A stretch of DNA of 64,000 nucleotides from Schizosaccharomyces osmophilus (lineage: Eukaryota), in the NCBI RefSeq assembly GCF_027921745.1, contig NC_079239.1, forward strand, positions 2,790,001-2,854,000, read 5' to 3'. Under the pieces are notes generated by a model that ran no database searches, was not told the DNA's origin, and saw only the letters and a program-made list of their open reading frames with translations. The translations under genes and the position numbers were made by a program. Shown one piece after another: positions 23,988 through 62,300 of this stretch (its first letter is position 1; every line of letters starts with the position of its first letter).

Positions 23988-24798
23988 TTACCTGCGTATA
24001 GAAGGGTCCACATATTGTACCAGCTTATCAAGTGCTTTTTCTTTTTCATTGTGAGCTTGTTCCGACTTCAAGTTGACATTTTCTAAATGCTTCATCAACA
24101 TCAACCGTTCCTCCTTCACCCACTGGAGTTTTAGTTTTTGTAAGTGATACATATCATGAGGGCTCTTTGGCATAGCTGCAGCATCCAGCCAGTTTTCCAT
24201 GTTTTCATTTGGAACTCCTGTACCTTGTTGCTGCTGCTGTTGTGCTCTAGCCTCTCTTGCACTTTGTACCATGGCATTGGCGACATTTTGAGGATGCATG
24301 GGGTGCGCTTTTGGAATGGGATCAGATGGCCGAAGTGTATCAGCCTCATGCACAGTTCGCATATGCTTTGCTAAAGCATCTGATCGCGTAAATGAACGAT
24401 CACATTCGGGAATAGAGCAAATAAATGGCTTTTCTCCTGTATGTGATCGCAAGTGAGCTATCAAGGCAAACCTGGAAGTCTGCACTAGTCCTTTTCTAGG
24501 ACAGTCATCCCATTCACACGTATACTTTGGTCGACGATTCCCAATATGACCTAGTTTAGCCAACAGTTAGCGTATTATTGTTGTAGCATTTCACGAGACA
24601 AAAATCCCGTGCACGAGTTTTGGTTTTCATTCCAAGCAACTCCCAAATCTACTTACCATTGTGGATATGGTGGACTAAATTGTCAAGCGTAAATAAGTCT
24701 TGATTGCATCCTTGCCAACGACAAATCGTTTCTGGCTCGGGCTCTAGTTCGATCGGTGAACCCGGTACTGATCCTGAAGTATCAGAAGAAACAGACAT
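23988..24798 (-). CDS. iec1: Ino80 complex GLI/YY1-type C2H2 zinc-finger subunit, exons 24798-24657 and 24550-23988
   Basis: Three C2H2 fingers ([44 protein letters not shown]) joined across a GTAAGT..CTAAC..TAG intron. Confidence 0.9.
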
Positions 24799-25635
24799 AA
24801 ATATATAAAAACACCAAGGAAGAAGGATCCCGGGTTTTCTTTTTTTTTTAACCTTTCTTGTCTATGGGTAAGCAGATGGAAAGTCCAAATAACGATTTCG
24901 TTATAATGCCTTAGCCGTTTTTGGTGGTGAAGAATTGGATGGACGTACTGGTTGTGCTTGTTATTCAGTCAACTTGCAGTCGACTTCATGAACAACTTAA
25001 AAACAAAAACATCTATTTATTACTAAAAGTTAAAACTAGAATGCCTTTTTTTTTTTTTTTTTTTTTGAAAGCGAAACTAGCATCTGTTCCTCTATGCTCA
25101 TAACGTTTCCTTTCGTTATTACTATAAGGAGACACAAAATACGTTCGCTAATTGCTATGTATTAAGGGCTTCAACAACATTTTCATGAATTGTGATGCTC
25201 GAGAAGGGAATCTTGACTTCACATTAGTTTACATATTAATTTTTGAATGGATGAATGAATGAATAAAGTTGTTAGTTAGGTAAACGATGGACATCATGCT
25301 AGAGTATGGTTCTCTAGTAACATCTCTAAGTAAGTACATTGTCTTTGTTGTATGAAAATTCATTTCAGGATTCGTTCAATGGCTTATAATAATTTTTTGA
25401 GCAAACAATAAGAGTACCCGCCTACTTTTAATCAAATCAGTCGTATTGTCCAACTAGGATATTTGTCCACTCGTAACACATTTTCATAATGTTCAACTTA
25501 GCATTTTATGTTTTCTACCTCACAGTGCAAAACAATTATAATTTTCTAGCTTAGTTGTCCATAACTGCCTACTAACAATTGTGCTTCATCCTTGTCTGGA
25601 GTCATAGTCATAGTGCGATAAATATCTATTAGACT

Positions 25636-25759
25636 GTCTACGGCCACACCTAGGTGAAAACACCAGTTCCCGTCCGATCACTGCAGTTAAGTGAAACGTC
25701 TGAGGGTCTCGTTAGTACTATGGTTGGAGACAACATGGGAATCCGGGGTGCTGTAGGCT
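25636..25759 (+). rRNA. 5S rDNA copy A, variant carrying a 5-nt insertion (possible pseudogene)
   Basis: GTCTACGGCCACACCTAGGTGAAAACACCAGTTCCCGTCCGATCACTGCAGTTAAG[TGAAA]CGTCTGAGGG...GCTGTAGGCT followed by a T-run. It is 124 nt versus 119 nt for copy B. Confidence 0.93.
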
Positions 25760-26093
25760 TTTCACTTTTTGGTTTCCTTTTTGACTTGTTTTTTCTGTTG
25801 CTCTTTTTATGGAAGCACATGGCTTTCGTCATGATCGACATAAACGTTTGACTTAGTGATACTAGTAATTGCAAGGAAGCAATGGTCATCCATGATTCGA
25901 TAATTAATTAAATTCTTTATTAGTTAGAAATTAAAAGGTTCTATAAGGATCAGTGATTAGAAGCGCCTGACGAATAAATATAAGAAACAAAATGCAAAGA
26001 TGAAACATAAACATAAACATAAGCAAAAGCATGCTGGAGAAAAAACAACAAGAACGGACATCATAATAAACAACGTTTTACTTTATGTATAAA

Positions 26094-26922
26094 TCAATTC
26101 CCACCGCTTTCAACATCCCTAGACTGACCCGGTTCCTGGCGTAACCCTGGAGATTGCTCAGTATGTTCAGAGGTATGTTCAGAGGACGGTTGTTTACAAG
26201 TATCATCACTACGATCGTTGAACTGGTTTTCAGGCTCTGGTGGCAAGCTGTTTAATGGGATACTATTATCATCCGTCAAGTCGTTTCTATCCGATGACAT
26301 CCTGAAGCCTAGAGCAGAAAAAAGCGCGTAAATCCCAGAAACAAATAGAGGAATCATTATATCCACCAACACTAAAAGTACCCCATTAGTAAACATATCA
26401 AATTAAAATTCCACCATTTCACTTACATGAACAAACATATAGAAACATGTAGAAAGCCACGACGACAAGAACAGCTGCTACAGTAGCTTGAAAGTTTACC
26501 CCTACAGATTCTTTCATCGATTCCTTTATAAAGGGGACAAGGTATTTGTAAGAAAACCAAAAGTCCAATACGATTGAACCAATAAAGCACCAACCAAGCC
26601 GAAGAGCTTCATTCTCTTGTCTTCGTTGTGCTTCGGGGATTCTCACAATTTTTGCCGGCCAGAAAATCAACCACAATAATGCCGTCAAGACTTTTCGTAA
26701 AAAAATAAAGAGTCCATTTCCTCCTGTCATGTTGGTAGACGCTTCTTGGTGTCTGCTTTCTGAGTACGGGGGTGCATGACCTTTTTCCAAGTCGTCTAGA
26801 TGAGAATTCAAGATTTCATTGTACCGTGGCAGTTCACCGTCAAACGTTGCAAGAGTGCCCAAGCGAGGAACGTCAGCTGAATCAGCATCTTTTAGCTTTT
26901 TGTATTTGTTTTTTTCAATCAT
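26094..26922 (-). CDS. wag: wtf-associated gene (wag)-type membrane protein, 257 aa, exons 26922-26427 and 26371-26094
   Basis: A GTAAGT..TACTAAT..TTTAG intron fuses the two ORF-track fragments in frame (..YVCS|LLVDIMIPL..). There are 3-4 hydrophobic segments. It lies divergent from a wtf gene inside a 5S-flanked unit, the arrangement described for wag genes; the name is assigned from context. Confidence 0.78.
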
Positions 26923-26958
26923 TTTCTGAAATCCCTTCAAAACCTACTCAAATAGGCA

Positions 26959-26965
26959 GTAAACA
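26959..26965 (+). promoter_or_regulatory. FLEX core (GTAAACA, Mei4 forkhead site) in the wag/wtf divergent promoter; a second reverse core TGTTTAC at 27477-27483
   Basis: Exact GTAAAYA matches. The motif is short, so chance occurrence is possible. Confidence 0.4.
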
Positions 26966-27813
26966 CCCAAATTCATGTCAGAACTTTCAAAACAGTAGCA
27001 CACATCTGATCCGACTAACAATCTTAATAAAATCTACTTTGTAACAACTCCAAACTACATGAATCGAGTCCACAATGGCAATGGCTAGAGTTTTGCAGAG
27101 GTGAAGCTGTCATCCACCCTCTCTGACATACATACCGATAGCTAGTAAGCGTACGCTATTCTATATATATTTACAATGAATGAACTGTCCGAAATCGCTT
27201 TTGTTTGTTTCTATCGTGTAATCTAAATATATTAAATAAAAAGAAAGATGTACTTGTCAGTACAAATGCTGTTCGTGATAGTTGAAACAATGCTTTTACA
27301 AACTTCCGATGAATTTGCTGAAAGTAAGGCTACGAAAATCTAGAGTGTTCAATCCTTTTCCCTGGAGTTCATTAAGCCAAAGTTACTGAATCTTTCAATA
27401 CAAATATGAGCATTTCCAATCCCTTGTTTTTATCATTCAAAGCAAAAAGCATGGTTGTTTTTGCCAAATGTTCCTTTGTTTACTTTTTGTAATAAACGAC
27501 GACTCTTTTGGATTATACTATTACGAAAAATCGCAATGAGGACTGTGACCAGTCAGTGACATAATGTCGCTGCTTTTATGAATGAGACATGCGAAAAGCC
27601 ATTACCAAGATTTTTTCAAACTCGCATCTTTGGTTTTAAGGGAACACTCGTGTTGTAAGATTAGTTTGCGTTTTAAGCAAGGTCCAATTCCTTTTTCTGA
27701 CAGATCTGTGAAGAGCGGAACCAGTTCCTACGGACTTTTCTTGGTGATTCTAGTTGATTTCATTTAGAGTGTAAAAGTCAGTATCATTTTGGGCTCTATT
27801 TGCCATTGTAAAT

Positions 27814-28907
27814 ATGAAAAACAAATATACTCCTATTTCAGATTCTGATGACTCTTCCAAAACGCTCAATGATGAAAAGGCAGATAGTCAGTCGTCTCCT
27901 TCAGATGGTACGCCTCCTCCGTATTCAGGTAAGATTAGTTGAAATAGAAAGGAAAGGTTGATTTTTTGCGTGCTTTTTGAGCGGTTTTTGATGGAAGAAT
28001 CATGCTTGTTTATTTATTTGTTGGGTTTGAGATGAATAACCTTGTCGATAAGTGTCAACAAACAGGGCGAATACCTCTATCCTTTTCACAAACAACGAAA
28101 GAACAGTTACTAATACATCCATTAGCTTCAACCAAATTTATTGATCTCGAAATGGCTCCTGAAACAGAAGAAAGTTCTAAAAAGAAAAGATATCTGACGC
28201 CTCGTGAATTAGCAATTGTTTTTGCTATTTTTATTGTATATAATGTATGCTTGATTATTGCGAGGGTCATTCTTCTTGTTTACGAAATTCCGTTTAATCA
28301 GCTTGCCGTTTGGGTACTTTTTGGCGTTTGGTGCGCTCTATTTCTGTCATTGACAATTGGTAAGAAACTAATTTCAGGATTTTTAATGACTCACTAACTA
28401 TTAGCAATGACTCAAATGCCTAAAGAATGGTTCACGCAGGCCAAAAAAGGGCTCACGCAAGCTGGAAGATTAACCAAAAACGTATTGTCAGCTATGTGTA
28501 TCTCAGTATTATGTGTGTGTTTTCTCGATGTCCTCGGTTTCACTGCGTATTATGCTGCAAAGAAGTTCACAGGATTTGAAAAGATAAACAACAATTTTTT
28601 CTATGCTGTTTGTTTTGTTAACTTTGTCTTGTTTCTTTATTTGACGAGTATGTCATACACCCGCGAAATATTCTAACTCTTCTAGTGAATGCAAATGCGC
28701 GTGAACTATTAAGATTAGTTCTCATCGATCTGAGAAACGGAATAGGAAACGCTGTGGATCGTATTTTAGGTATGTACACTTCGTAAATGCTTGCTATCGT
28801 TAGGGCTTTAATTAACCTATTTTAAAGATACAAATCGAGGAGAGCAAGTACCTCAGAACGAAGAAATCGAACTTCAGCCTCTTGCTGAGCAAAGCGCTGA
28901 AGTTTGA
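27814..28907 (+). CDS. wtf: wtf family meiotic driver (poison/antidote), 5 exons: 27814-27928, 28126-28359, 28405-28647, 28686-28769, 28828-28907; 251-aa long isoform and 204-aa short isoform from ATG 28152
   Basis: Four introns with canonical 5' sites, branch points and AG give a stop-free 756-nt CDS. Exon 1 encodes MKNKYTPISDSDD...GTPPPYS (PY motif), exon 2 has an in-frame Met (DLE-MAPETEE), the middle has several TM segments, exon 4 has GIGNAV, and the C-terminus is EEIELQPLAEQSAEV. The gene is adjacent to 5S rDNA. Confidence 0.92.
28054..28064 (+). promoter_or_regulatory. FLEX-like element in wtf intron 1 (candidate promoter of the short poison transcript)
   Basis: GTCAACAAACA, one mismatch from extended FLEX GTAAACAAACA, about 90 nt upstream of the exon-2 ATG. 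A TTGTTTAT variant also lies near 28006. Confidence 0.55.
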
Positions 28908-29645
28908 GTTTGAGTTATACCGAACCTGCTTTCATTCTTTATATTTCGCATCTTCTTTGGAAGCATTCATGTCAATTGCAGTCCATCAAGTTTCTGCATT
29001 CACATCCACCAAAGTAAGCATTATCTTAATATGATAGCTTTAATTGCTTTTCTTATTCGCTCTTTCATGAATCTGTTGATTCGTTTCACAGCATCGCTGT
29101 TTACGCATTGTTTATCTTCTTCGTGAATAGAACACCCTTTTTAATGATTATTTAATTATTCCGACGAAAACTCCATCGCAATTAATTATTGTTTAGCTCA
29201 ACACCGAGTCGTGTAATTGCATGTCTTATAATTGGCAAGGACGAAAGTGAGTTTCAACAGTAATTATTTTCATTCAGTATAGCAAGCACAAATCTTCAGA
29301 TCGAAAGATTCGACAGGTGTAGTTTAATTAATTAAATTATCGTTTATTTAGAGAGTCAAGTCAACGGACCATGAAAAATGTATAAGTAGAACCCAATTTA
29401 TATTAACATTTTCAACCCATAAACTCATACACTCAATCTGATGCTCCTGCGACCACAGTGTGAATCAATAGAAAAGAGTAAAAACAGTGTGTTTTCAAAT
29501 ATTATCCTTACAGTATGAAAGCATTCTCCATTCAACGTGACAAAACACACAGATAGAACTGAGCCGAATTGGATCTTGTAGTTCATCAAGCCAAATAAAA
29601 GACTGGATTATTATTGTATAGATATCTTTACAGACCATAACAAAC

Positions 29646-29764
29646 GTCTACGGCCATACCTAGGCGAAAACACCAGTTCCCGTCCGATCACTGCAGTTAA
29701 GCGTCTGAGGGTCTCGTTAGTACTATGGTTGGAGACAACATGGGAATCCGGGATGCTGTAGGCT
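29646..29764 (+). rRNA. 5S rRNA gene copy B (full length, 119 nt)
   Basis: GTCTACGGCCATACCTAGGCGAAAACACCAGTTCCCGTCCGATCACTGCAGTTAAGCGTCTGAGGG...GCTGTAGGCT followed by TTTTT (Pol III terminator). Confidence 0.97.
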
Positions 29765-30499
29765 TTTTTCTTGATGGATATTTTTAAAAATTTTATATAC
29801 ATCGACTACTTTCTGAATATACGCTTTGATAGTTGTACCTTCACAGGTAACAAGAAAGGAAAGGGACGGTCTAAATGAAACTGAAAAGGTTTACATGCTC
29901 TAAAACGAGCTTTCAAGATATTATTCAGTTTTTATTATAATAATTTATATATGTAATTACGAATGCACCGATCGTTTTTCATGAATCAGTGTGCTATGTG
30001 CTACGTTGGATTAATCATACCCACTTGCTCTAAATCTAGCATGGCAGGGCATCACACTCGCATTGATATATTTACCATTATCAATTCATGAAAAAACAAT
30101 TTCTTCAAATTCAAGGTCAATTGAATACTAAATTTAGGTAGACGCTAAGAAAAGGCAAGGAAATAAATATTCATTAAGTACATCATACGTAGGAATGGTC
30201 TTTCTTTCCACCTTCCTTTACTTTCGAGAAAACTTCATTTTCTGAAAACGAACGAGTTTACAGGAATTTTTGTAGTTTATAACGCGAAATACTCAATAAT
30301 TAGTTGTTGGGTATCATTCATCTTAAATGTCAAGCTGTAAACGGTTGATGAGTAGCAACTGAAAGCGGTTGACATCGGGACAAAATTAAGTTTTAAATCC
30401 ATTGCTTAGTCATTAAGAAAAATTAGTTGTTAGATATGAGCTATCAATTTCAATATCCTTCTTTCTTGTAAATGATTGTTTCATTCTGCCATAGACGCC

Positions 30500-31869
30500 A
30501 TACATAGCAGGGAATCAAAACTTCTATTCTGTAGCGGATCGTCCAATATACGTATTTCGCTATTCCAAAGGTAACTGAAAAACGGAAAGGCAATATTGAG
30601 ACGGTAGACAATTACGCAGGCACAGAAAAAAAACAAGGTGATCGTAGCAACGCAGTAAAACAGAGAGTTTTGCCAACCTAAAGGAATGTTTCAACTTCAT
30701 GAAGGATGCCTGATACAAATGATAAATCGCTTACATCCAAATCAATATATTGCTAGAGTCATTCAAGAATTCATCGATCAAAGATATCAATGTTTCAACT
30801 ATCCAAAGCTTCCAATGGATAAATCAAAGAACGGCATGGCAGGCAGCAGAAACAAGTAAGATAATTGGACCCCCCCCCCCCCCCAAAAAAAAAAAAAACT
30901 AGATGTCTCTAAATGAGCGCCTCATTACAAACCAAAAAGCTACCTAAAACAGTACCAGACGTTCAGTAAACATACAAATGGGTCCTTGATACTCGAAAAC
31001 TAGCCAAGCGACGTCAAATTGAAACCGTTCGGTAATCGAAGATCTAGTCCACCTAAACAACAGAAGCGTTGAACGCAGAGCTAACAATGAGCAATAGCAG
31101 TCCATATTGTGCTGAGAAAATCGTAGTCCCTTGAGAAACCAACGCGTACATCCAGTAGATAGCAAGCAAAAGGAACACAAAGGTGAATAGTAAGGACCAT
31201 AGTAAGAAGTTCTTTTACGACTAGGGTGGATATTGTTTAAATTGAAGCCTAAATCAATATTTGCATATAAGTCTCGACTTACTGATCCATCCTTAGAGAG
31301 CGGTCTCAAAGCAAAACAAAAGTATCCTGAGTCTTTTCTTCGAACTGAAAAAAATAAATGGAAGGAAAGGTAAAGCTATGAACAGAACTACCATTATAAG
31401 GAAGTGGACCAGTTAAAGTATGTCGTTCATCACGCCGTGGGTATTGGGATATGGAAAAACTGCTGTACTCCTTGCCAAACCGAGAAAACCATTGCTTCGT
31501 CACTTGATTATTATCAAGTACTAATTCCCACTCTCTGGCATGAAAATAAGTGACAGCAACACCTGTATGTGAGCTGTCGAAGCTTTGGAATGCTAAACCA
31601 TTATACTTTGGATTTGTCTCACTGGCATTTACCCATGAACAATCGACTCTGGACTGGAAGTTATGATAATTGATATCGCATTACCAGCAGAAGAAAAAAG
31701 GACTTAAGAGACTAGGTTCCAGCTCAGCTGCAACCAATGTAAAAAATGTTCGCCAAACCAAAAAGAATAAATATCGCTTGCCGAATGGAGATTCCCATTC
31801 TGTTATTAAGATTGGCGAAAGGCAGGCTAGAATTAGCGAGAGTATAAGATGGATTAATCTCGTTTGCAA
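30500..31869 (-). pseudogene. Degenerate multi-pass membrane protein gene, weakly resembling the Lung-7TM/Ptm1 (TMEM87/GPR107) architecture; boundaries approximate
   Basis: A signal-peptide-like start (LIHLILSLILACLSP), a luminal stretch with N-glycosylation sequons (VNAS, YNGS) and TM-like pieces (FLLWSLLFTFVFLLLAIYWMYALV..AQYGLLLLIVSSAF) are broken by stops and frameshifts. Confidence 0.4.
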
Positions 31870-32533
31870 TTAGTCTTAGTTTTCCCACTCAATATGTTTT
31901 AGTTCCTATAGAATCACTTTATCTTTCGCCATTATTTTTGTAGAAAAACTAAAAAAAGGTGTTCTTATACATTGAAGGTAATGATTTGGCAGAAACAAGA
32001 CGTAAATACGTCAAAATCAATAGGTGTTTAAAGATGAAAAGGGTTTTACGACAACAAATAGAGGCGCTCGTCTTTTTCAAATTGCTTTGCAAAAGTCTTA
32101 TTTCATGAATGTGTAGAAAGACATTCGCAGTGTCCATGCGACCATGGAAATTATTGTAAGGAAAGAACATTGCCAAGATATTTGGTCAAACGAATGCAAT
32201 GAGAAAGTAACACGAATTGTGCCATTAGTCGAATCTTTCGGCCTCCAAACAATTCGACTTGGATTCTTAGGCTCACAAATGATTAAAAGTTCATTTTTAT
32301 TGAGCATTTGTTCTTGGACTGCATTTCATATTTTCATCCTTTCGTGATTCTCCTTTTTGTAAACTGTGCTTTTCATTAGTTTTACCTAAAAATTTACAAG
32401 GTGACTTTTTATTTTATGTTTATTAGCTTATGTGGTATACATAATCCTAACGGAACACTAACCAAGGCAGGAGACGAACAATGTACGCAGTTCTCAATTT
32501 TACTCGACGATTGTAACACTCACTCACTTAAGA

Positions 32534-34096
32534 ATGGCAGAAAATTTCCATTTCATTCCCTCTGTTATAGACGGTTTCAACCCAGATCAGCGAGAGGTAA
32601 TTCGTTACTGTTTAAAGAAGAATATTACTCGTTCAGTGAAGATACCCGATATTGCAAGTTATACATTATACGAGAATGGTTTGACCTATACTGAAGATAA
32701 TTATGAGTCCTTATTGCAGGCAATAATAAGCTTGGCTCAAGGTTTTGTTGGAAGTAATAACATCAATCTTTTAATGCATGTTTCCGAGGTTGGCAACCGT
32801 TTTGACCCCAAGGTTCCGAACACAATACAAGGGGAAGCTACAGCATATTATCTTTGGACCCTTCTTTCTCCTATAGCTAGGAAGTTATTCAGACCGGAAG
32901 ACGATCCTTTAGTCACTTATCAGAGGGAGGGAGATCAGCTGGACAAGTCTGACTTTTACGTACCGATATTGCCAATGATTCTTATTAACGGCGCAGAGGC
33001 ATTTGAAGCGGGTTGGTCTACCTGCATTCCAAACTTTAGCCCTAAAGATGTTGTTGCTAACTTGAGACGGCTTTTGAACAATGAACCTTTGCTGGACATG
33101 TCTCCTTGGTACCAAGGATTTCATGGTAGTATAGAAAAAGTGGCTTCGAAAGAATACAGTATGAATGGTATAATCAAACAAATAAACGAATCAAAAGTGG
33201 AAATAACAGAACTGCCTGTCCAAATGTGGATTCGAGACATGAAGCAATTCTTAGAAGAAGGAAAGACAGGAAGTGATATAGTCCAGCCATTCATCAAAGA
33301 ATACGAAGAATACCATGATTTGAGGTTTGACATGAATAGTGTACACTTCCAAGTAACCCTGACCGAAAAAGGAATGAGAGAAGCTTTGGCCGAATCCTTG
33401 GAATCTAAATTCAGATTAGTCCGCATTCAGACTATCAGCAATATGGTGGCATTGGATTCATCAGGGAGAATAAAAAAATACGATTCCGTTGAAGAAATTC
33501 TATATGAATTTCTTCGAGTTCGTTTAGAGACCTATCAAAGACGAAAAGGATATCTCATTGCTGAATTAGAAAGTCGCTATAACGTATTATTCAATAAGGC
33601 GAGATTTATTCAAATGATTACGGGAAATGAACTTATGATTTGGCAAAAGAAAAGAAGCACGCTTATAGTCGAACTCCGTGAAAAAGGGTTTCAGTCGATT
33701 TCAAAATCTGATTCTAAGAAGAATCGCGAAGCTAAGAAAGTAGTTAAGCGGGCTCGAGAGGATGGCAAAGATCCAATTGAATCGCTCGAGGATTTCTCTA
33801 GTGGTTTTGATTATCTTTTATCCATGCCAACCTGGTCCTTTACTTATGAGAAATATTCAGGGCTCTTGAAGAGAAGGGATGATATTGAGCGAGAGATTGA
33901 GTCTTTGAAAAATTTGGATATTAAAGAGCTATACTTGAAAGAATTAGAGGAATTTGAATGTGCGTGGAATAAGATGGATGAACTAAATCACAAAAATAGT
34001 TTGGGTGATTTTTGCCCTTGTAAAAAGTGTCGACAAAAGGAATGGAAGAGATTTAAGAGCGAACAGTTTCGATGGCCGAGTCGTTGGCAGCGGTGA
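32534..34096 (+). CDS. Truncated DNA topoisomerase II paralogue: breakage-reunion (GyrA/ParC-equivalent) domain only, 520 aa
   Basis: Colinear Top2 motifs: IPSVIDG..P.QR, LAQGFVGSNNINLL, YVPILPMILINGAE, PWYQGFHG, VEITELP, SNMVALDSSGRIKKYDSVEEIL, NKARFI and DYLLSMPTWSFTYE. I found no GHKL ATPase or TOPRIM coding sequence upstream. Confidence 0.92.
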   Translation: MAENFHFIPSVIDGFNPDQREVIRYCLKKNITRSVKIPDIASYTLYENGLTYTEDNYESLLQAIISLAQGFVGSNNINLLMHVSEVGNRFDPKVPNTIQGEATAYYLWTLLSPIARKLFRPEDDPLVTYQREGDQLDKSDFYVPILPMILINGAEAFEAGWSTCIPNFSPKDVVANLRRLLNNEPLLDMSPWYQGFHGSIEKVASKEYSMNGIIKQINESKVEITELPVQMWIRDMKQFLEEGKTGSDIVQPFIKEYEEYHDLRFDMNSVHFQVTLTEKGMREALAESLESKFRLVRIQTISNMVALDSSGRIKKYDSVEEILYEFLRVRLETYQRRKGYLIAELESRYNVLFNKARFIQMITGNELMIWQKKRSTLIVELREKGFQSISKSDSKKNREAKKVVKRAREDGKDPIESLEDFSSGFDYLLSMPTWSFTYEKYSGLLKRRDDIEREIESLKNLDIKELYLKELEEFECAWNKMDELNHKNSLGDFCPCKKCRQKEWKRFKSEQFRWPSRWQR

Positions 34097-34805
34097 AATT
34101 TGACTAGGTGAAATCTGAAAAAGGAAATGATGAAACAGATGAACTTAAAAGGCTTCCAAATAAAAGAAAGTTTGGAAGCAAAACATTTGACAAAGGCATA
34201 AGGCATTCTCGAGTAAAGGACTTACTCCTCACGTTTCCTCTAGACAGCAAGAAACAGCGTGCCTCGTTCATCATTAGTTTTCAACTCTGGCAAATAGTAA
34301 TGAATGTATCGTTTTGTAAAGCTATTTTCTAGTAAGCATTTAGCCAAACTTCATGGTGTATATACTTCATTGGAACCAAAACTTTCTTAGTTATGAAGGA
34401 AGAGAGAAAATTAATATTTCTTAGTTTTTCCTTCTGAATAACGAAAAACAAAAAACGTTTTCAACTGGCTTTGATAAATTAACACTTGACTATTCGAAAA
34501 ACGCGTGCGGAAACAAATCTTTTGATATGCCAACATTACAACAAAAGGATTTCCATTATATTTTAAAATTCTTTGGTTTCTCAACTCGTAAAACAAAAGG
34601 ATTTCTTCTGATTTCGCGTCCTTAAGTTTGTTTACATTCTTACCCTATAAACAAATACTATAAATGAAAACAAACGCAGCATAAATACGGGAAATAATAC
34701 ATAGATTAGCTTTTATGTTCAAAAAGAAATCAGTAAACCAATCTTTAATGTATGCTGTTTTCCTATATGCACTCTGATTTCGTTTGTTTATATCTGATAT
34801 TGGAT

Positions 34806-34815
34806 GTAAACAAAC
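34806..34815 (+). promoter_or_regulatory. FLEX element (GTAAACAAAC) followed by TATA-like TATAAG at 34832; further reverse core TGTTTAC at 34629-34635
   Basis: 10/11 match to extended FLEX GTAAACAAACA, 87 nt upstream of ATG 34893. Confidence 0.55.
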
Positions 34816-34892
34816 CCATTCTTCTCCCATCTATAAGCTCTTGGGCAACTCAGCAAAATTATCAATTTCTTTTAATAAAATCTGTCATTATC

Positions 34893-35165
34893 ATGCAGAG
34901 TTTTGTCCCGCAAACGTATATGAAACTTGCTTTTCAGCTTCATCCTGATTTGGACGAAAGAGATTGCCTAGCAGTACAAGCCATGGTGCAACTGGTTTCC
35001 TGTTGGAGACAAAATAAGATTCAATCTGAAATTTACTACAATCAACATTCCATGAAAAAAAATCCTGCTCGCTGTGAAGTATATCTGAGACGTCGCTTTC
35101 GAAGCAGAAAGTCCCAAATTCAGCATTTAAAAAAACAAACTTTCAAACCAAACCATCTTCCTTAA
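34893..35165 (+). CDS. Small basic orphan protein (90 aa), putatively meiosis-induced
   Basis: ATG-initiated ORF MQSFVPQTYMKLAFQLHPDLDERDCL...YLRRRFRSRKSQ..., preceded by FLEX and TATA-like motifs. No family recognised. Confidence 0.45.
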   Translation: MQSFVPQTYMKLAFQLHPDLDERDCLAVQAMVQLVSCWRQNKIQSEIYYNQHSMKKNPARCEVYLRRRFRSRKSQIQHLKKQTFKPNHLP

Positions 35166-35571
35166 ATTGTCTCAGTCCCCTAAAACAATCAAATCCCTTA
35201 TGAGCAATGCTTAATGCCTTCTTCTAATGGTAAACAAAATTAACATTCACGACCTTTCTTTGATCATCATCATGTCTCCCTAATTCGAATAATAACGATG
35301 ATCTTTCATGTTCATTACTTTTGGAAAAAGACCCTACTTGTCAGTATTCCTTCGTTCTCTTGTTGATTCCGAATCGTGCAGTTCATTTCCTCCTTTCACT
35401 ATTATTTATTGCTATATTCTTTCTTTCTTTTACAAACTTCATTATTAATCTTTTTTTTCTTCTTTGTTTCAATTCTCAAACTCAGTCTGCTTTTGATTCT
35501 ACTTCTTGAAAGCTCCGTTCGTTTCCTACCAAATCCATTAAGCCTACCAATACCTTTCTTCCGGCCCGAAA

Positions 35572-35980
35572 ATGTCAAAAACAAGAGCCCAATCTGCTTT
35601 AGAAAAGCTAATTCAATCTCAGAGAGATCCTCAATCACAGAAAGAGGGCTATTTTCAACAGAAACGACTTGCAAAGAAGGAACGTGCTTTTGAACCCGAA
35701 AAAATTGCTCTAGAGGAAAAACGGAAACAAGAAGAGAAGCAATCAGAAGTTCTTAAATATTTAAAGAGAACCATGCGAGTTGAAGATGCCGAGAAAGCTG
35801 TCCATGATATGGTAAGTCTTTTTTTTTTTTTTTTGGAATCGGAATGAGAAGGGAACGAAAGAACTAATAGATTTCTAGATATCCAAAAAGAATGAATCAA
35901 ACAAGAAGAGAAAAAGAAAAGAGAAAAAGATAAATGACGACGATTACGGCGTCTTCGAAGATGACGGCCTTGTTCTATAA
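35572..35980 (+). CDS. Small Lys/Glu-rich, probably nucleolar protein (113 aa; exons 35572-35811, 35879-35980), loosely Rrt14-like
   Basis: A GTAAGT..ACTAAT..CTAG intron joins MSKTRAQSALEKLIQ...AVHDM to ISKKNESNKKRKRKEKKINDDDYGVFEDDGLVL-stop. The family assignment is a guess. Confidence 0.7.
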
Positions 35981-53235: not shown

Positions 53236-53363
53236 ATCCTTTCTGGTATTATGGACTGGCTCTTTTTCTATATAGGTGTTTTCATGGTCTATTGCCAGCG
53301 ATATTTGCATTCATTTCTCATTTTCTTTCTTTTTGTTGAAATATTTATATTTTCATTTTTGTT

Positions 53364-56300
53364 ATGACAATTCCCTTAGAACGAACGTCCATAGCCAGCT
53401 CAAATCTAGACATATCTACCACAAGGACTGGTGCTCATAATATTCTGGACTATCTGAAACAAGCTATTAGTATTACATGTTCAATAGATCAAGAAGTAAC
53501 GTTTGCTGAAATCTCGAAATGTGAAGAGTTTACAGATGCTTTTGCTTGTTTTCTGCAAGATTCAGACCAACTGTATCTGTACTTATTTGGTGTTTTAAGC
53601 TCATCACCTTCGGAAGCTGGCTTGCATGATCTAAAAATCGACAACTGGATCTTTCATATTGACTACAACTATACGGTGAAATCAGATTCTGATGTTGTTC
53701 TCGTTTTTCTCAAGCAAACAAAATATATGGATCTCACGGCTCATCTACAAAAGCAGTTGGTTTTTGCTCACCTGCCTTTATCTGCTCGCCATAATGACAA
53801 TCCTTTTAATTCCTCTATTAACACCGTTCATAGTTACGTGAAATATGTTTTAGAGCCGTTTTTTGTCAATTGTGCCAAAGAGACGCCTGAAAAAACAACC
53901 AATACTTTACCAAATTATAATTTACAATTAAGTAACACAAAGAAGGTTTTTACTGAGCTTGAACTCTCCCTTGCCAACCTTCAAACTGATCGCTCAGTTC
54001 CCCATGTGATACTATACATACATCCTGTTATAAAGGAAGCTATCCATCAGTCCGAAATTGAAGATGCAGATCTCTCTGTCCATTGCATTTCTTCCGATAC
54101 TTTATCAAACCCAAAATTTTTGAATTCGTTAAACGTAACCGTTCATTCTTGGATCAACAACATAAACCAACTTGTAGAGACTTCTCAAACGAAAGAACAA
54201 GGGTCAACCTCACAGGAAATTAGGTTTTGGCATTCGTTGTGTCTATCATATAACGAAGTATATAAACAATTGACGGGCCTACCGGTCAAGTTCACCTTGG
54301 AGGTATTGAATTTTGCTAAGCGTTTCCATACAACTGCTTCTTTTTTGAACAACACTAACTTACGCGCACAATCGGACACAGCAAACAGAGTTGCCAGTTT
54401 TTTGGTAGATATTCCTTTATCCTCGATTCAAGGCGCATCTTCTCTGGATTCTCTTCATACAGCCATAATGTCAGTACATACTTATTTCATGAAACGATGG
54501 AAAAGTTCGTCTTATCCATTGTCGCGCACTATCACTTTTTTGAACTGCCTTGCTGATGATTTTGGTTCGAAGCTTACAGAAATACTAGACTCTGACTATT
54601 TGTTGGCTATGTCTTTTACAGACTTTCAGCACAATTTATCTATTGCTTTGAATGTGTTGACGACGTGGGACTCTAATAACAAGGAATTTTTACTATTAGT
54701 AAAACATACCCTCTCTAAGCGGAAAGAAGCTTACGGAGCTATCTGCTTGAACGAAAAACCAAAGTTTTTGTCGAAACGACTACTGTCCATGCTACTTGTA
54801 AGAGAAACCCATGAAAGTTTAACGGTTACGCTTTCATCTCTTTCATCTTCCGATCAAGATGGTGTAGAGCTTTTCGAAACTGTTTCTGACTCTCAGTTTT
54901 CTTCGTCTCTAGATTTATTCCGAAATGTCGATGTTCTGGATATCACTGAAGATGGAAGAAGGAAGTGGAATCTGCAAGAGTCAAAATTCGGTGATGTACT
55001 TTCACAATTTGACAGTCAATTTATATTTTTTATAAAGGAAAAATTTAGGTCTTGTGAAAATACTACCCACTTGATTTCAACGTTTTTAAAGTATAACACT
55101 TTGCTAATGCGTCCGAAGATAAGAAATGCAGTTCGGGAATATCATTTGCAGCTTATAAACGGTGTAAGCCATGATGTGGTCACCTTAAAGTCTCGTTTTA
55201 CCGACGTTACTTCCGACTTGGAACTCTTCGCTATGCACCAACTTCGCGATATTCCTCCCGTTTCAGGTGCTATCATGTGGTCTAGCCAGGTAACTCGAAG
55301 ATTACAGAAATACTCTACTCAACTTGATATAATTTTGGGTAATGATTTGGCGACCTACAATGAAGGAACAAAGCTAAAATCAGAAGCTCAATCACTGCAG
55401 AAAAGGCTTAATCCTCTTGTCATTTATAAAAACTGGTTAAATAGTTTGTCCTTAGATGTGTTTGATTTTACTACTCCTATCTTTAAAATTATTCCCGTAA
55501 CGGAACTGAATTGTTTGGAGATTTCGGTTACTCTGGACTCACAGCTAATGATGTTAATAAAGGAGTTCAGGACTCTTTCATCAATGGGGTATGAAGTTCC
55601 CGAGCGTTTCTCAAAAATAATATCTAATTCCCAAAAACTACAGTCCATTGCTGCTAATCTCTCGAGCTCAGCCAAACTCTATAATCAGTCAGCTAAGGTT
55701 GTTGAAACTTCATCGGTTCAAAAGTACCTGCTTACCGAGGTAGAAAACAAAATTCAGAGTCATATATCTGAAAATTTGTTTTTAACATGGGAAGACTTTT
55801 TAAACGATCAGACTCGACAAAGTGAAAAAGAATCGGGAAACAATTGTACAGATATTTCTGGTCCGCATGCATTTATTTATCAATTAAATTCCCTAATCAA
55901 CATATATTGCTCTAAATATGAATCGGTTGTGCGTACTTGTTCCGAAATAGATAGCAACTTAATACGGCTCGAAAATGATGAGTATGTGTATGAATCTTTC
56001 CTTGGTTTATTAAAGGAAATTCAAGTGATAGTTGATCGTTTATATGTTGATGGATATTCTAACCTTCATAAGGTTGTGCTAATTATTAACGAAAGGATCC
56101 AGAATATTTTAATTATAAAATTAAAAAGGATATTTGATAATCTTTCCCTGTTACTAAAAACAACTGATGATAACCACATCACTAACTTAGTTACTTCAAG
56201 TCTTTCAATGAAAAGATTGTTAGATAAAAGTTTGATTTTGCAGCCGATTTCTTTGACATCGAAAAATGGTGCTATATTACTTGAGCCTTCCCTTCAAGGT

Positions 56301-59300
56301 ATATTAACTTCGATATTTGACATGATAAATTACCTCTTTTCATCAGTTAAAAACCTTCCTGCTATCTATTTACGTGGTTATCCTACCAGTGGAGGGGTGT
56401 CTGAGTCAAAATCCGCAATTTTTATAAAAACTCTACAAGCTTTGGATGCTGAAGTGGTGAATTTATTGAATGTATGCTCAAATGCGCTTGTTGATATTAA
56501 GAGGTACATTACTCCTTTAGAACGATATCAAGTTTTTGATACTCGACTTTTGGATAAGTTCTCGACTGTCTCTTTACAGCAGAATGATTTTTTTCAGCTC
56601 ATTCAATATCTTGCATACACGAAAAGGACCCTCAGTGAAATAGATGATGAGGTTAGATTTGGGTTATTTAAAGTAGACCTTGTGCCATTTAGAAGCCGCA
56701 CGACTTACTCTCTTTCTAAATGGATGGAGTTCTACTTTGAGCTATTTTCACAAGAATTATTTGATTCTGTACAAAATTTCCGACAGAGTCTTTCTCACTA
56801 TAAGGATTCGTTACGTAGTATTAAATTAGGTGATTGGAAATCAGTCAAAGAAGCAAATGAGTCTGCCTCGAACTTGGAAATTTCTTTGAATTTTAAGAAG
56901 ACGGCGCTAACACTGTTAGAACTAGTGAGGTCGACTGAAAATATTTTCAAAGACACAAATTATCGTCTTTGTAGTGGTTGGACTCCTTATGAGCTAATGT
57001 TACATGAAATAGATCCTTATTTTATTGCATTGGATGAAGTAAATGTTTATTATACTAAAAATAAAAGCAAGTTGATTGAATTTACTCAAAACTCAAGTGG
57101 TGATCTAAGAATCAAATTGGCTTTGTTCTTCTCCAATTGGGATTTAGAGAAAACTCGTTTGCATGAACTTGACCTCGAAACGTTTTCAGCTGTTCTGGAA
57201 AACTATTCAAAGGATTTTAATTTTATAATCGAGCTCTTGGGGGACCAATGCCAACTAGAAAAATCGCTAAGGATTCCTACCAGTGAATTTAGCGATACTT
57301 CTAAATGTTTTAACGAAATTCTCTCATATAAAGAATTGTTATTTCTTATTTCGGAAAATGTAAAAGTTTTGCAAGTATACGAGGAAACTCCCTGGTTGCT
57401 TTTAGATTGTCAAGTTTTCGAGAAAGAACTGACCGATCAAACGAAGGAACTGGATAAATGTCCGTCGAATATAAAATCTTTGGTGCCTTATGCTAAACTT
57501 AATACAAAAATAGCCGAAATTTTATACGTTATGCCTTTGCTACGTGAATTGAAAAGTAGTCATGTCGAGAAAAAACATTGGCAAAGGTTATTATCAGCTA
57601 TAGGAATCGTACAAAACAATTCTTGTGAGAGTTGGAAATTAAAGGATGTATTGGGACTCAAGTTGGCCTCACATTTCTCTTTGGTTAAGGACGTGATAAA
57701 GGAAGCTTCCGAAGAAGCAACTATTCGGAATTTATTGCAATCAATCTGCATGAGCTCTGAAAGTTATGAATTTCAATTTCTCCTTTACGATAACAGAACA
57801 TACCTATTGAAAGATAGCGATAAACTATTATCCGACTGCGAAGAATGGATTGATCAGCTGAGCTCTATTAAATTATCTGAAAGTTATAGTCAGGTAAAAG
57901 GTTTAACTGATGATTTAACTGACAAACTAATTGACTTGCTTGATTTCCTTAATATTTGGGTGGACGTCCAGCAACATTGGACGTATTTGGACGGCGTTTT
58001 TTCGAAAAACAAGGTATTCCAGTCTTTATTACCTCAAGCTGCTGTTGCTTATTTTAGGTCAACAAAGTCTTATACTCAAGGGATCAACTTACTTCTTTCT
58101 TCAAAGGGAATTGAAGGATTTCATAAGCTGCAATCACCAAAAGACTTCGCTGATACTTTACTTCGTTCCTTAATTGATATCAAAAAATTGTTGATAGAAT
58201 ACTTTGAAAGTGAAAGATTAAAATTCCCTCGTTTATTTTTCTTAGGTGATGAAGACTTATTGGAGCTTGTCTGTCATATCAACGATGAAGCTATTATGGA
58301 CAAGCATATTGGTACTTTGTTCCCTGGGATAAAAAGGCTCATCATCAGTCAAGAGGATGATACCATTGAAAAACTTGTTACAGATGAACATTTAAGCTTA
58401 GTACTTTCTTCACCAATTAGAATAAAACAAGAATCCGGCTGCTTCGAGTGGGTCAGCTTTATTGAAAAAGATATCAGGAGCGTGCTTCTAAAAACTTTCG
58501 GTGTAGCATATTCTAATTTTAACAAAGATTATGATATTAACAATTTAAATGCTTGGTTCCCTGTCTGGTTGAAGTCATTTCCCAGCCAAATATTGCTACT
58601 TTGCTTTCGTTGTTATGCAAGTCATGCCTTAAAGGAAGGAATCAAAGAGAAGGAACTCACTTGCTTTGATAGTTTGTTAAAACAAGGGATTGAATGGCTA
58701 AGTAAGTACGCAATTGATGAAGAAAATGTGATTTTGCGGAAAAAAGTTTTATTGTTCATCAACGAAAAACTACATTATAGGTCCTTAGTAAAAACGCTTA
58801 TTGACAATAACTATAATGATTATTACTGGTTCCGTGAAATTAAATGTTCTTACCAAATTGACGAACGTGGTAAGCCTTCTATCAATGTTGAAATGTTTTC
58901 GGTTACTTGTCCTTACACGTTTCATTATGTGCAAATTGAGAGTCCTTTCGTTTATACAGAACTAACAAGGGAATGTTTCTCAACTTTGATACATGCCATT
59001 CAGTTGGGCTTCGGGGGTGCTCCATCTGGACCTGCAGGAACAGGAAAAACCGAAACAGTAAAGGCACTTGGTGCTTATTTGGGGCGATATGTTTTTGTAT
59101 TTAACTGTGATGATTCTTTCAATTATAAGGTAATTCGCCGAATACTAACTGGTTTATGCCAGCTGGGTGTCTATGCTTGTTTTGATGAGTTTAACCGATT
59201 GAATCCTGGAACGCTGAGCTCCGTATCCCAAGATATTCAACTAATACAAACGAATTGTAAGAGGGGATCTAAAGCTTTACTACCAATCAATGGCCAATTG

Positions 59301-62300
59301 ATTGAAGCTGACCGAAGCTTTTGTATCTTCATTACGTTAAATCCTAGCTACCAAGGTCGTTCAGAGCTACCATGCAACTTGAAGCGTCTTTTTCGTACTG
59401 TTTGGATGGAAACTCCTGATGCTCTCCAAATCTGTCAAGTACTTCTTTATAGTAATGGCTTTAAAAACTCATCGGACCTTGCAAATATATTAACCTCTTT
59501 CTTCAAAGATTGTGCTAAACAATTTTCCCAAGTGTCATACTATGATTTTGGACTTCGAACTATACGTGCCATCATTAAAGTATCATGTAATTTTCGCCGT
59601 AGTAATTTATTGGAATACGCAAATTTTGGCGACCTTGGATTTATTTATCGAGCAATTCAGACTGTTGTTTTACCAAGGCTTAGTGTTAATGACGCAAAAG
59701 TTTTTGAAGGTCTGAGACAAAAATATTTCAGCACTATCAACACACAAAATAGCGAGTTAACCACTATCATTGGATCACTTGAAGCGGCCTTGAAAGATTC
59801 CAAGTCAATTAATAACCTCACGTACCTTACTCAAAAAGTACTTCAACTTCATCAGCTTTCCGAAGTTTACAGTGGAATCATTATATATGGTTCAAGCGGT
59901 TCAGGTAAAACTAATGTTTGGAAAAGTCTTTTGGATGCTTATAATAGACTACAAATGAATACCGAACACCATGTTATTTCTCCCAAATCTATTGACAAAG
60001 AGTCCCTTTTTGGGACCTTGGACTTGACAACTCACGAATGGGCGGATGGTATATTCACACAGATACTACGTTCAGCTATAGGTTCCAGGAGCCAACACTG
60101 GATTATTTTTGATGACGATATTACGCCTGATTGGGTTGAAGCAATGAACAGCTTGTTGGATGACAACCGCTTTTTAACATTACCTGACGGCCAAAGAATT
60201 CCCCTTTCTGATAGTGTTAGGATTCTTTTTGAAGTTGACAGTATCCAGTCAGCAACAATGGCAACCATCAGTAGATGTGGTATTGTGTATGTTGATGACG
60301 AACCTATCACCAACAATGTTTATATTGAGCCGTTGTTGGGTGAAATAACTTCTGATCAAGGAAACTCGGAAAAGAGAAGTGTGATATGTGAAACTGTAAT
60401 TGAGATTGTTTCCGAGTTACCTATAGACGAACTTTATGAATTTGCCAATAGTTTGTCCCATGTTATGGAATTAGAAAGGTCACGATTTAAAGAAACTCTT
60501 TTGTTATATTTTAAGAAGGAAATTATGAATTCGTCCAGGTTTATTGAGTTTAATTGCTCCTTCAACAAAGCAACCCTGACAGCTTACATGAGAAAGAAAT
60601 TATTACTTTCAATAGCTTGGGCATGTATCGGTGATTCCGATTTAGATTCTCATCGTAAGTTTACAGACTGGATAAAGGAAAACTATGATTTGGGGACTGG
60701 TATTTCTAATACAAGTGAAATGATTTTGGATTTGGACGTTGATGCCGAAACTCAGAACTGGTTAGGTATCAATGAAACTCTTGAGTTTGAAAAGAATAAT
60801 GATGCTCCAGATTTAGGCGCAGTGATAAGGACTACTGAAGTAATTCGCTATGACAAGTTGATTAACGACCTCTTATTAATGAACGGTTGCCTAATTTTTT
60901 GCGGACCTCCCGGTTCAGGTAAGAGTATGACAATGCTTCATTTTTTGAACGATAATGACAATATTGACGTTGCCGTGATGAACTTTTCAGCGTCTACTTC
61001 TGCTTATGCTATTATTCGCTTCTTGGAAAGAAATACTATCTATAGCATACGTGCTAATTCATCTTACGTTGCCCCAAAAAACAATAAAACACTAGCTGTG
61101 TTCTTTGACGAAATCAATTTACCCAAACCAAGCCAGAACGGTGGAAATGACGCTTTATGCTTTCTTAGATGCGTTTTGCACCACAAAGGTTTCTGGCATC
61201 CCAGATTTAAGAAGTGGATAAACATGAAAAGAATTCTTATTTTCGGTGCCTGTAACCCCCCTACTGATTATGGAAGGTCTTCCTTGTCATCCCGTATTCT
61301 CAGAAGCTCAGTAGTTATACAATACGGATATCCAGGTTTCGATTCACTCACTAAGATTTACAAACCCATATGTGATAGAATTCTGAGCTTTGTGGAGTAT
61401 AATCATTCCAGCTCATTAAATGAGAGATTTCTTAATTGCAGTGTGAAGGTTTATGAAAAAATCAAACATACATTTTCTTCAAAGGAATATATTATCCACA
61501 CCTATACACCTAGAGAACTAACGAAATGGTTTGATTGTTTACGAAACATGGTGGAATCAATGAATCAAATTACTTCCGAGCAGTTACTTCAAATATGGTA
61601 CCATGAAGCTTGCCGTGTGTTCATGGATAGATTAAACCATACGGACTTTCAACTTGGTGAATCTATTTTACAGAACTTTTTATATACAGAATATGAAGGA
61701 GTGAACTTTAAGGAGTTCACTAACTACTTTACATGTAATTTATTATGTGAAAATTACAGCATAGTTACTTTAAACACTGTGAAGTCGCATCTGCAAGGAT
61801 TTATCGAAAACTTTAGAATTGCTTGCCCAAATTCCCTTTTTTTGCCTACAGAAAAAGGTTGTCTTGATGCTATCCGGATCAGCCGTGTTTTTGCACATAC
61901 CAATAGCCATGCAGTAATTTATGGAGAATATGGATCGAATCAGAAAAGTGTATTAGAACTTGTGAGCTGGAAGCTTGGCTATAAATTGTTAGTTTTCGAT
62001 CCTTGTTTACAGCCAGAGTTCCCAGACTTAATGGAAGAATTAAAAACTATAGTCAAACTTGTCGTTGCTGACGATAATAAACTTTGTCTTGCGATCGATC
62101 ACTTTCAATGCGTTAATTCGGACGTATTTGAGGTTATGAACAATTTGCTTACTGGCTCTGATATAAGCTGCCTGTTTACAGATGAAGAATGGGGAAATCT
62201 TAAAAAGAGCGTAATGCTCCGCCATCTATGTAAATCTGACAGTGAGGTCGTTGAAAAGGTACAGAGTTTGATTTGCCAAAACCTTCATGTGTTTTTTATC

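What the first reader, a model, noticed from the sequence alone, without database searches (positions are those of the whole stretch)
32534..34096. Stand-alone 'half-Top2': intact GyrA-equivalent paralogue with a remodelled active site, next to a meiotic-drive cassette
Seen: a stop-free 520-codon ORF starting at the Met equivalent to Top2's internal MADNIRSIPS (here MAENFHFIPS), roughly the natural GyrB/GyrA boundary, with no ATPase or TOPRIM domain. The catalytic R-Y pair is Y105-Y106 (ATAYYLWT vs ASxRY.T). YHHGE is replaced by TYTEDNYE, GLKPGQRK by GFNPDQRE, GQFGTR by SEVGNR, and the DNA-intercalating GAEGIGTGW by GAEAFEAGW. The coiled-coil and C-gate dimer motif (DYLLSMPTWSFTYE) are kept, and there is a new basic CPCKKC tail. 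Established: Top2 needs the ATPase, TOPRIM and RY elements for cleavage and dimerises through the C-gate. Inference: an open frame with DNA-contact residues turned acidic, among decayed neighbours, suggests a selected non-catalytic protein. It could be a Top2 decoy or dominant-negative partner, possibly a segregation-distorting toxin or modifier analogous to truncated-duplicate drivers such as Drosophila Sd-RanGAP.
Basis: partly seen in the sequence, partly recalled or inferred. Interest (0 to 1): 0.88.

Follow-up and report, generated by a model that had tools for sequence, protein, structure and literature searches.

The report
Half-topoisomerase pseudoenzyme kept by selection
A fission yeast carries an unbroken extra gene encoding only the back half of its DNA-untangling enzyme Top2, with many DNA-gripping residues changed but the core dimer-arm residues kept, so it is likely a selected, catalytically dead subunit that would pair with Top2 and damp it; a role in meiotic drive is untested.

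Summary
32534-34096 is a single-exon 520-codon ORF matching Top2 residues ~731-1200 (57% identity), with no ATPase/TOPRIM remnant in the window; full-length top2 lies on another chromosome. It is annotated (SOMG_03778, S. osmophilus) but only auto-named. New here: (1) contigs of two runs that splice neighbouring introns cover it unspliced, so it is likely transcribed; (2) it is not neutral debris: 0 of 4,500 neutral simulations stayed stop-free, all 18 invariant coiled-coil/C-gate sites are kept, while invariant DNA-gate sites are lost at the neutral rate; (3) it belongs to a small family: an S. cryophilus half-copy forms one clade with it, a frameshifted sister copy lies elsewhere in this genome, and the three annotated loci are non-syntenic. 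Best reading (0.4): a dead half-subunit that dimerises through the C-gate, likely with Top2, damping it. Rivals: homodimeric decoy (0.25), selfish toxin (0.15), relaxed relic (0.15). The wtf cassette 2.8 kb away looks incidental. Binding, translation and phenotype are untested.

The parts
32534..34096 (+). half-Top2 ORF, 520 aa, single exon (published gene model SOMG_03778, auto-named 'DNA topoisomerase II')
   Evidence: model pLDDT 87, TM 0.82 to Top2 cores
32534..33028 (+). winged-helix / DNA-gate part (aa 1-165): fold predicted intact, DNA-contact residues changed (R6H, K16N, K21E, HH motif, R105Y, GIGT to AFEA), net charge -6 against +1 in Top2
32846..32851 (+). Y105-Y106: Arg of the R-Y pair lost, catalytic Tyr kept
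32990..33016 (+). GAEAFEAGW: DNA-bending Ile (yeast Ile833) and both flanking Gly replaced
   Evidence: role of Ile833 from passages of PMC10436251 and PMC11294524
33488..33976 (+). coiled-coil and C-gate (aa 319-481): 18 of 18 invariant sites kept
33977..34093 (+). new 39-aa basic tail replacing the Top2 C-terminal domain; CxxC (C496, C499) has a counterpart at about the same place in the S. cryophilus half-copy
32452..32533 (+). likely 5' leader: an X4 contig begins at 32452 with a 22-letter non-genomic end whose reverse complement also hangs at the 5' side of minus-strand por1
   Evidence: one contig, adapter nature recalled
32481..32516 (+). 11-codon out-of-frame upstream ORF inside that leader
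25636..29764 (.). 5S rDNA - wag-like gene (26094-26922, -) - wtf30 (27814-28907, +) - 5S rDNA unit; neighbour, probably not a functional part

Best explanation
This is an intact partial duplicate of top2 that encodes only the GyrA-like half, is likely transcribed and catalytically dead, and likely dimerises through its C-gate with the cell's own Top2, which would damp Top2 activity. Shown: open frame, no ATPase/TOPRIM, loss of invariant DNA-gate residues, retention of every invariant coiled-coil/C-gate residue, family membership across two species. Predicted: the Top2 core fold. Inferred from how type IIA enzymes work (recalled): each active site pairs one subunit's tyrosine with the other subunit's TOPRIM, so a Top2/half-Top2 dimer has one ATPase domain, no TOPRIM for Top2's own tyrosine, and only the crippled Y105-Y106 site; it could not pass a duplex and would form fewer cleavage complexes. 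The uORF in the leader may hold the dose low. What such damping buys (for example tolerance of Top2 poisons) is not known.
For: Frame: 0 of 1,500 neutral simulations stop-free under each of three mutation models, 9-11 stops expected. Since the split from the sister copy (15-18% nucleotide difference in its three best-matching stretches; net length shifts +1, -14, -6, -1, i.e. frameshifted) only 5-12 of 4,000 simulations at 8.5% divergence stay open. Pattern: invariant sites kept 18 of 18 in aa 319-481 (null 11.6-11.9, no simulation reached 18) against 42 of 91 less conserved sites there (Fisher p 8e-6), and 37 of 55 in aa 1-165 (null 35-36); substitutions are conservative (mean BLOSUM62 0.03 against about -0.57) and changed hydrophobic sites stay hydrophobic (77% against 54%). 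In aa 1-165 only 3 of 8 invariant basic residues are kept (one of the five losses lies at an uncertain insertion). Fold: pLDDT 87, TM 0.82 to Top2 cores. Transcript: X3 and X4 contigs skip 8 and 6 of 8 listed GT-AG introns of neighbours and cover the ORF without a joint. Age: one clade with S. cryophilus SPOG_04458 (100/99; separate origins rejected, p-AU 0.0005 and 0.0003). No annotated GyrB-like partner among the 29 'topoisomerase' hits of the annotation tables. Precedent: human TOP2alpha/90 heterodimerises with full-length enzyme and lowers etoposide-induced breaks (passages of PMC9265003).
Against: C-gate constraint is equally explained by self-dimerisation. In the two segments that map to the human dimerisation domains (aa ~357-373 and ~421-443; mapping) identity to the host Top2 is 9 of 17 and 15 of 23 (counted by eye), no higher than the protein's 273 of 466 average, whereas the S. 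cryophilus half-copy keeps 13 of 17 in the first. The window copy evolves fast (25 private changes against 6 in the S. cryophilus copy, p 0.0009; branch 0.42 against 0.081). The other two known copies look broken or short (63 aa and 236 aa models) and S. octosporus has none annotated, so the function is dispensable. The leader uORF may block translation; no protein evidence exists. Top2 is essential, so damping it should cost. The cDNA evidence is one sample, contigs only, in runs recorded as 'DNA?'. The AlphaFold model leans on an alignment of true Top2s (pLDDT was 58 with 9 sequences).
Confidence: 0.4

Rival explanations
1. Homodimeric decoy or scaffold: the protein pairs with itself through the C-gate and binds something that normally binds the GyrA-like half of Top2 (a regulator, a proteinaceous Top2 toxin), or uses the new CxxC tail for a new job, without entering Top2 dimers.
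For: Same selection pattern. Dimer segments have drifted from host Top2 (9 of 17 in the first), and the net charge of aa 319-481 moved from -7 to +2. The CxxC tail has a counterpart in the S. cryophilus copy.
Against: No ligand or toxin identified. Keeping both Cys by descent alone is not unlikely at 134 of 199 identity between the two copies.
Confidence: 0.25
2. Selfish element: a Top2-poisoning toxin (or modifier) that biases its own transmission, moving between loci and leaving dead copies like wtf and tdk drivers.
For: Three non-syntenic annotated loci in two species, a frameshifted sister, fast evolution, patchy presence; rare cross-species synteny is also reported for tdk (passages of PMC12930445). 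It sits 2.8 kb from a wtf unit.
Against: One apparently intact copy, not an expanded family; no antidote gene, alternative start or intron found; the other two loci have housekeeping neighbours; the nearest FLEX-like word is 450 nt before the leader and such words occur 43 times in the window; a same-length gene stands at the same place in another strain, though strains are 99.73% identical.
Confidence: 0.15
3. Relaxed relic: once useful, now only weakly selected and on the way to the fate of its sister copies.
For: DNA-gate invariant sites are lost at the neutral rate (37 of 55), several in-frame insertions, four-fold acceleration on this branch, uORF in the leader, broken relatives.
Against: An open frame is improbable under neutrality both over the whole history (0 of 4,500) and since the sister split (0.1-0.6% at 8-8.5% divergence, up to 3.6% at 5%); all insertions keep frame; conservative substitution spectrum.
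Confidence: 0.15
4. Active A-subunit of a split, gyrase-like enzyme, or a nicking partner that uses Y106 with Top2's TOPRIM in trans.
For: Y106, D13, R20 and the fold are kept; the break lies near the natural A/B boundary.
Against: Counterparts of yeast R690, K700, R781 and I833 are all replaced; that the first three are needed for activity is recalled from Liu and Wang 1998, which was not held. No B-half gene is annotated.
Confidence: 0.05

Closest known systems
Eukaryotic type IIA topoisomerase Top2 (S. osmophilus SOMG_01629, P0122)
   Same: 57% identity over residues ~731-1200, same predicted WHD-tower-coiled-coil-C-gate fold, catalytic Tyr kept.
   Different: No ATPase, transducer, TOPRIM or C-terminal domain; R-Y Arg, bending Ile and other invariant DNA-gate residues replaced; new CxxC tail.
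Bacterial GyrA/ParC and phage T4 gp52 (natural stand-alone A subunits)
   Same: Same domain span (PF00521 positions 3-421 of 432; TM 0.71-0.72 to T4/T6 central domains).
   Different: Derived from the host's own top2, no annotated B partner, active-site residues altered.
Human TOP2alpha/90 truncated isoform
   Same: Catalytically dead part of Top2 that heterodimerises with full enzyme and acts as a dominant negative (passages of PMC9265003).
   Different: It is the N-terminal half, lacks Tyr805 and the C-gate, and arises by intronic polyadenylation in drug-selected cells; here a separate gene encodes the opposite half and has lasted millions of years.
C. elegans cin-4
   Same: [quoted passage not shown]
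   Different: That cin-4 is a recent, near-identical partial duplicate is recalled (paper not held); the yeast gene is about 40% diverged with a remodelled DNA gate.
wtf and tdk killer meiotic drivers; Drosophila Sd-RanGAP (recalled)
   Same: Patchy, non-syntenic copies with pseudogenes; Sd is also a truncated duplicate of an essential gene.
   Different: No Pfam or Top2-independent sequence link seen, no poison/antidote layout, one intact copy, drive not tested.

Membership tests
Eukaryotic Top2 (active type IIA enzyme) | GHKL ATPase and TOPRIM domains on the same chain | tested here: not met
   likely 5' end at 32452 and no joint in contigs over the ORF
Eukaryotic Top2 (active type IIA enzyme) | Catalytic Arg-Tyr pair in the winged helix | tested here: not met
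   Tyr kept (Y106), Arg replaced by Y105
Eukaryotic Top2 (active type IIA enzyme) | DNA-bending Ile flanked by Gly | tested here: not met
   G-I-G became A-F-E at 156-158
Eukaryotic Top2 (active type IIA enzyme) | WHD-tower-coiled-coil-C-gate fold | tested here: met
   predicted only: pLDDT 87, TM 0.82
GyrA/ParC-type A subunit of a split enzyme | PF00521 as a stand-alone chain | tested here: met
GyrA/ParC-type A subunit of a split enzyme | Cognate B-subunit gene | tested here: inconclusive
   none annotated; the genome itself was not held, so unannotated pieces were not searched
Dominant-negative truncated Top2 (TOP2alpha/90-like action) | Heterodimer with full-length Top2 that lowers cleavage | not testable with these tools
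   needs co-IP and enzyme assays
Killer meiotic driver (wtf/tdk/Sd-like) | Above-Mendelian transmission from heterozygotes | not testable with these tools
   needs crosses
Killer meiotic driver (wtf/tdk/Sd-like) | Poison/antidote pair or dual isoform | tested here: inconclusive
   no intron or partner gene found; an X3 contig runs 1.5 kb upstream, strand unknown
Neutral pseudogene | Stops/frameshifts and unconstrained substitution | tested here: not met

The most novel reading that the evidence does not exclude
A mobile family of Top2-derived pseudoenzymes, at least about 29 million years old, that poisons Top2 by subunit mixing and is a new class of selfish segregation distorter (or its antidote) in fission yeasts, turning over between loci like wtf and tdk.
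Probability: 0.15. Interest if true: 0.9.

Novelty: new variant of a known kind. Interest (0 to 1): 0.62.

Why it matters
Eukaryotic Top2 is a fused, essential homodimer, and natural protein inhibitors built from Top2 itself are hardly known. A stand-alone, selected GyrA-like pseudoenzyme gives a ready test of whether a cell can tune Top2 by subunit poisoning, and its gain-move-decay history in species rich in selfish genes makes a genetic-conflict role directly testable with one deletion cross. If it proves a relic, it is still a clean case of a partial duplicate whose domains were released from constraint unevenly.

Tried and rejected
Predicted complex of host Top2 731-1201 with aa 1-490: no answer (0.13 against a mark of 0.34, alignments not used, controls not folded); not counted either way. 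Run search: no RNA holder listed on record. X4 shows next to no cover outside 32452-34320 and X5 (another sample) none over the ORF: parts without cover, not used as evidence. Upstream exon or assembly error: no Top2 match upstream, DNA contigs of X1/X2 match the ORF letter for letter (they may be the source of this DNA). 'Sister contig is top2': rejected, it has the window's length across the 3- and 5-residue insertions that top2 lacks; that it is the SOMG_01121 locus is likely but unverified. 'Copy moved between species after their split': considered because the tree puts the clade at the base of the three Top2s, dropped because of 22 clade-derived sites the window copy has 11 derived, 6 ancestral, 5 other, which fits an origin somewhat before the split; position unresolved (p-AU 0.40-0.47). 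Other short Top2 hits such as Ceratobasidium models starting at MADN keep intact motifs and the long tail (3 such models read) and look like split gene models, not relatives. First fold with 9 sequences was poor. Direct dN/dS was not possible: no top2 or sister DNA was obtainable. Metagenome scan: 73 pattern hits, 0 relatives. The 50%-representative search never ran. Earlier-finding look-ups returned nothing. Meiotic motif scan (FLEX, DSR, TR-box; motifs recalled) showed nothing telling.

Full report
Observation. The ORF at 32534-34096 (+) is open for 520 codons and aligns with the C-terminal catalytic half of eukaryotic Top2: 57%, 57%, 56% and 49% identity to the S. cryophilus, S. osmophilus, S. 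octosporus and S. pombe enzymes. Yeast residue 685 pairs with M1, so H6, N16 and Y105 stand where yeast has R690, K700 and R781, Y106 is Tyr782, and A156-F157-E158 replace Gly832-Ile833-Gly834. The roles of Tyr782 and Ile833 were read in passages of PMC10436251 and PMC11294524; the need for R690, K700 and R781 is recalled from Liu and Wang 1998, not held. tblastn with four Top2s finds nothing else in the window (next E 0.66).

Identity of the gene. Neighbouring proteins cluster with S. octosporus and S. cryophilus orthologues (5 of 8 queries were in the collection, 4 with named members). The S. osmophilus annotation tables (supplement rows of PMC10085805) list a 1,563-nt plus-strand gene SOMG_03778 after wtf30, named 'DNA topoisomerase II' by automatic transfer and placed in a one-gene orthogroup; true top2 is SOMG_01629 on chromosome 1. 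The paper's main text never mentions top2 or topoisomerase, nor do the tdk preprint or the orthogroup-resource preprint. Searches for osmophilus + top2 (1 unrelated hit), octosporus + cryophilus + topoisomerase II + paralog (3 unrelated), topoisomerase II + meiotic drive + duplicate + catalytically inactive and Top2 + partial duplication terms found no description; hits were judged from listings. bioRxiv supplements were closed and only 12 of 44 supplement files of PMC9562144 were searched, so orthologues in S. lindneri or other lineages may be on record unseen. A gene annotation file for strain CBS 15792 has a single-exon 1,563-nt gene at the position I predicted beside wag20-wtf37; the strains are 99.73% identical, so this is weak support.

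Transcription. No holder is recorded as RNA, but contigs of X3 and X4 skip 8 and 6 of the 8 listed GT-AG introns of neighbouring genes, so they are cDNA. One X3 contig covers 30904-33667 with no difference or joint, and X4 contigs cover 32452-32832, 32955-33465, 33473-33911 and 33937-34320. The X4 contig at 32452 begins with 22 non-genomic letters whose reverse complement also hangs behind 37499, the 5' side of minus-strand por1; I recall this as a template-switch adapter, which would put a plus-strand 5' end 82 nt before the ATG. This is one contig from one sample; contigs give no level or growth stage. That leader holds an 11-codon out-of-frame uORF at 32481. Translation is unshown.

A family, not a one-off. 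The short-protein search returned S. cryophilus SPOG_04458 (236 aa, 61%). Over aa 281-481 it shares 19 residues with the window protein that differ from all three close Top2s (at least two are ancestral states) and a CxxC just after the last helix. The two form one clade (100/99), and trees pairing each with its host's Top2 are rejected (p-AU 0.0005, 0.0003); the clade's place among the three Top2s is open (10 rows, two distant outgroups left out). Polarised sites (11 derived, 6 ancestral, 5 other of 22) suggest an origin after the S. pombe split and somewhat before the 29.4-million-year S. cryophilus split (dates). In DNA runs X1 and X2 a second contig matches the ORF at 82-85% in three stretches and has the window's length across the insertions that top2 lacks, with net shifts of +1, -14, -6 and -1: a frameshifted sister, probably the 63-aa SOMG_01121 between snr1 and yml6. 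SPOG_04458 lies between isp4 and rpl26, where the other two species have consecutive gene numbers, and S. cryophilus has only 2.8 kb where this window has 11.4 kb. So three loci, none syntenic by annotation, one intact.

Selection. I compared the protein with the 382 sites where the three close Top2s agree (245 kept) and classed sites by conservation in 116 other Top2s. Neutral simulations to the same divergence gave 9-11 stops on average and 0 of 1,500 stop-free under each of three models (indels not modelled). Splitting the sister divergence evenly (8-8.5%), 5-24 of 4,000 stay open; at 5%, 46-142 of 4,000. Constraint is uneven: invariant sites kept are 18 of 18 in the coiled-coil/C-gate (null about 11.7), 18 of 23 in the tower (null 14.6, P about 0.09) and 37 of 55 in the DNA-gate part (null 35-36); DNA-gate against C-gate p 0.004. 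Substitutions are conservative throughout, least so in the DNA gate, whose net charge fell from +1 to -6. AlphaFold with 84 sequences gives pLDDT 87 and TM 0.82 to Top2 cores. Against a simple story: the window branch is about four to five times faster than the S. cryophilus one, and the mapped dimer segments are no closer to host Top2 than the rest of the protein (24 of 40 by eye).

Mechanism. Without ATPase and TOPRIM the chain cannot act alone, and no B-half gene is annotated. What selection keeps is the fold and the dimer arm. The simplest use of a kept C-gate in a cell with one Top2 is pairing with Top2; by the trans arrangement of type IIA active sites (recalled) such a dimer would be inactive in strand passage. 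Human TOP2alpha/90 shows that a dead part of Top2 can act this way (passages). I put this at 0.4, self-pairing decoy at 0.25, selfish toxin at 0.15, relaxed relic at 0.15 and an active or nicking subunit at 0.05.

The drive link. The 5S-wag-wtf-5S unit spans 25636-29764, a standard layout (passages of PMC9562144), and the ORF starts 2,770 nt outside it. With about 42 wtf loci in the species and housekeeping neighbours at the two other loci, proximity says little. The turnover pattern does resemble tdk, which keeps the selfish reading alive.

Verdict. A real, likely expressed, selected half-Top2 pseudoenzyme of a small mobile family, annotated but apparently undescribed; not a member of active Top2 or of any driver family on the tests run here. 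New variant of a known kind (truncated-duplicate pseudoenzyme), interest 0.62.

Noticed in passing
window 25636-25759: The left 5S rDNA copy carries a 5-nt insertion (25692-25696) relative to the right copy and scores 88 against 107 bits in Rfam; possibly a defective copy.
   Followed up: no
window 53340-64000: The dynein heavy chain frame stays open to the window's end, while the published dhc1 model ends at about window 63360; the model may be cut short.
   Followed up: no
window 30904-32451: An X3 contig runs unspliced 1.5 kb upstream of the likely mRNA start through sequence with many ATGs and no recognisable gene: a long leader isoform or a separate non-coding RNA, strand unknown.
   Followed up: partly
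X1 record 4 / X2 record 9 laid on window 32572-33667: A second genomic copy at 82-85% identity in its best stretches with frame-breaking length shifts; probably the locus annotated as 63-aa SOMG_01121.
   Followed up: partly
protein P0252 (S. cryophilus SPOG_04458): The 236-aa model starts at the equivalent of M281 and has changed little since its split from the window copy (branch 0.081); the real gene may be longer than annotated.
   Followed up: partly
window 24500-35900 against relatives: The iec1 to SPAC144.01-orthologue distance is 11.4 kb here, 6.5 kb in S. octosporus, 2.8 kb in S. cryophilus and 2.6 kb in S. pombe; S. octosporus has a 4-kb hypothetical gene model SOCG_00865 there whose content I could not see.
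   Followed up: partly
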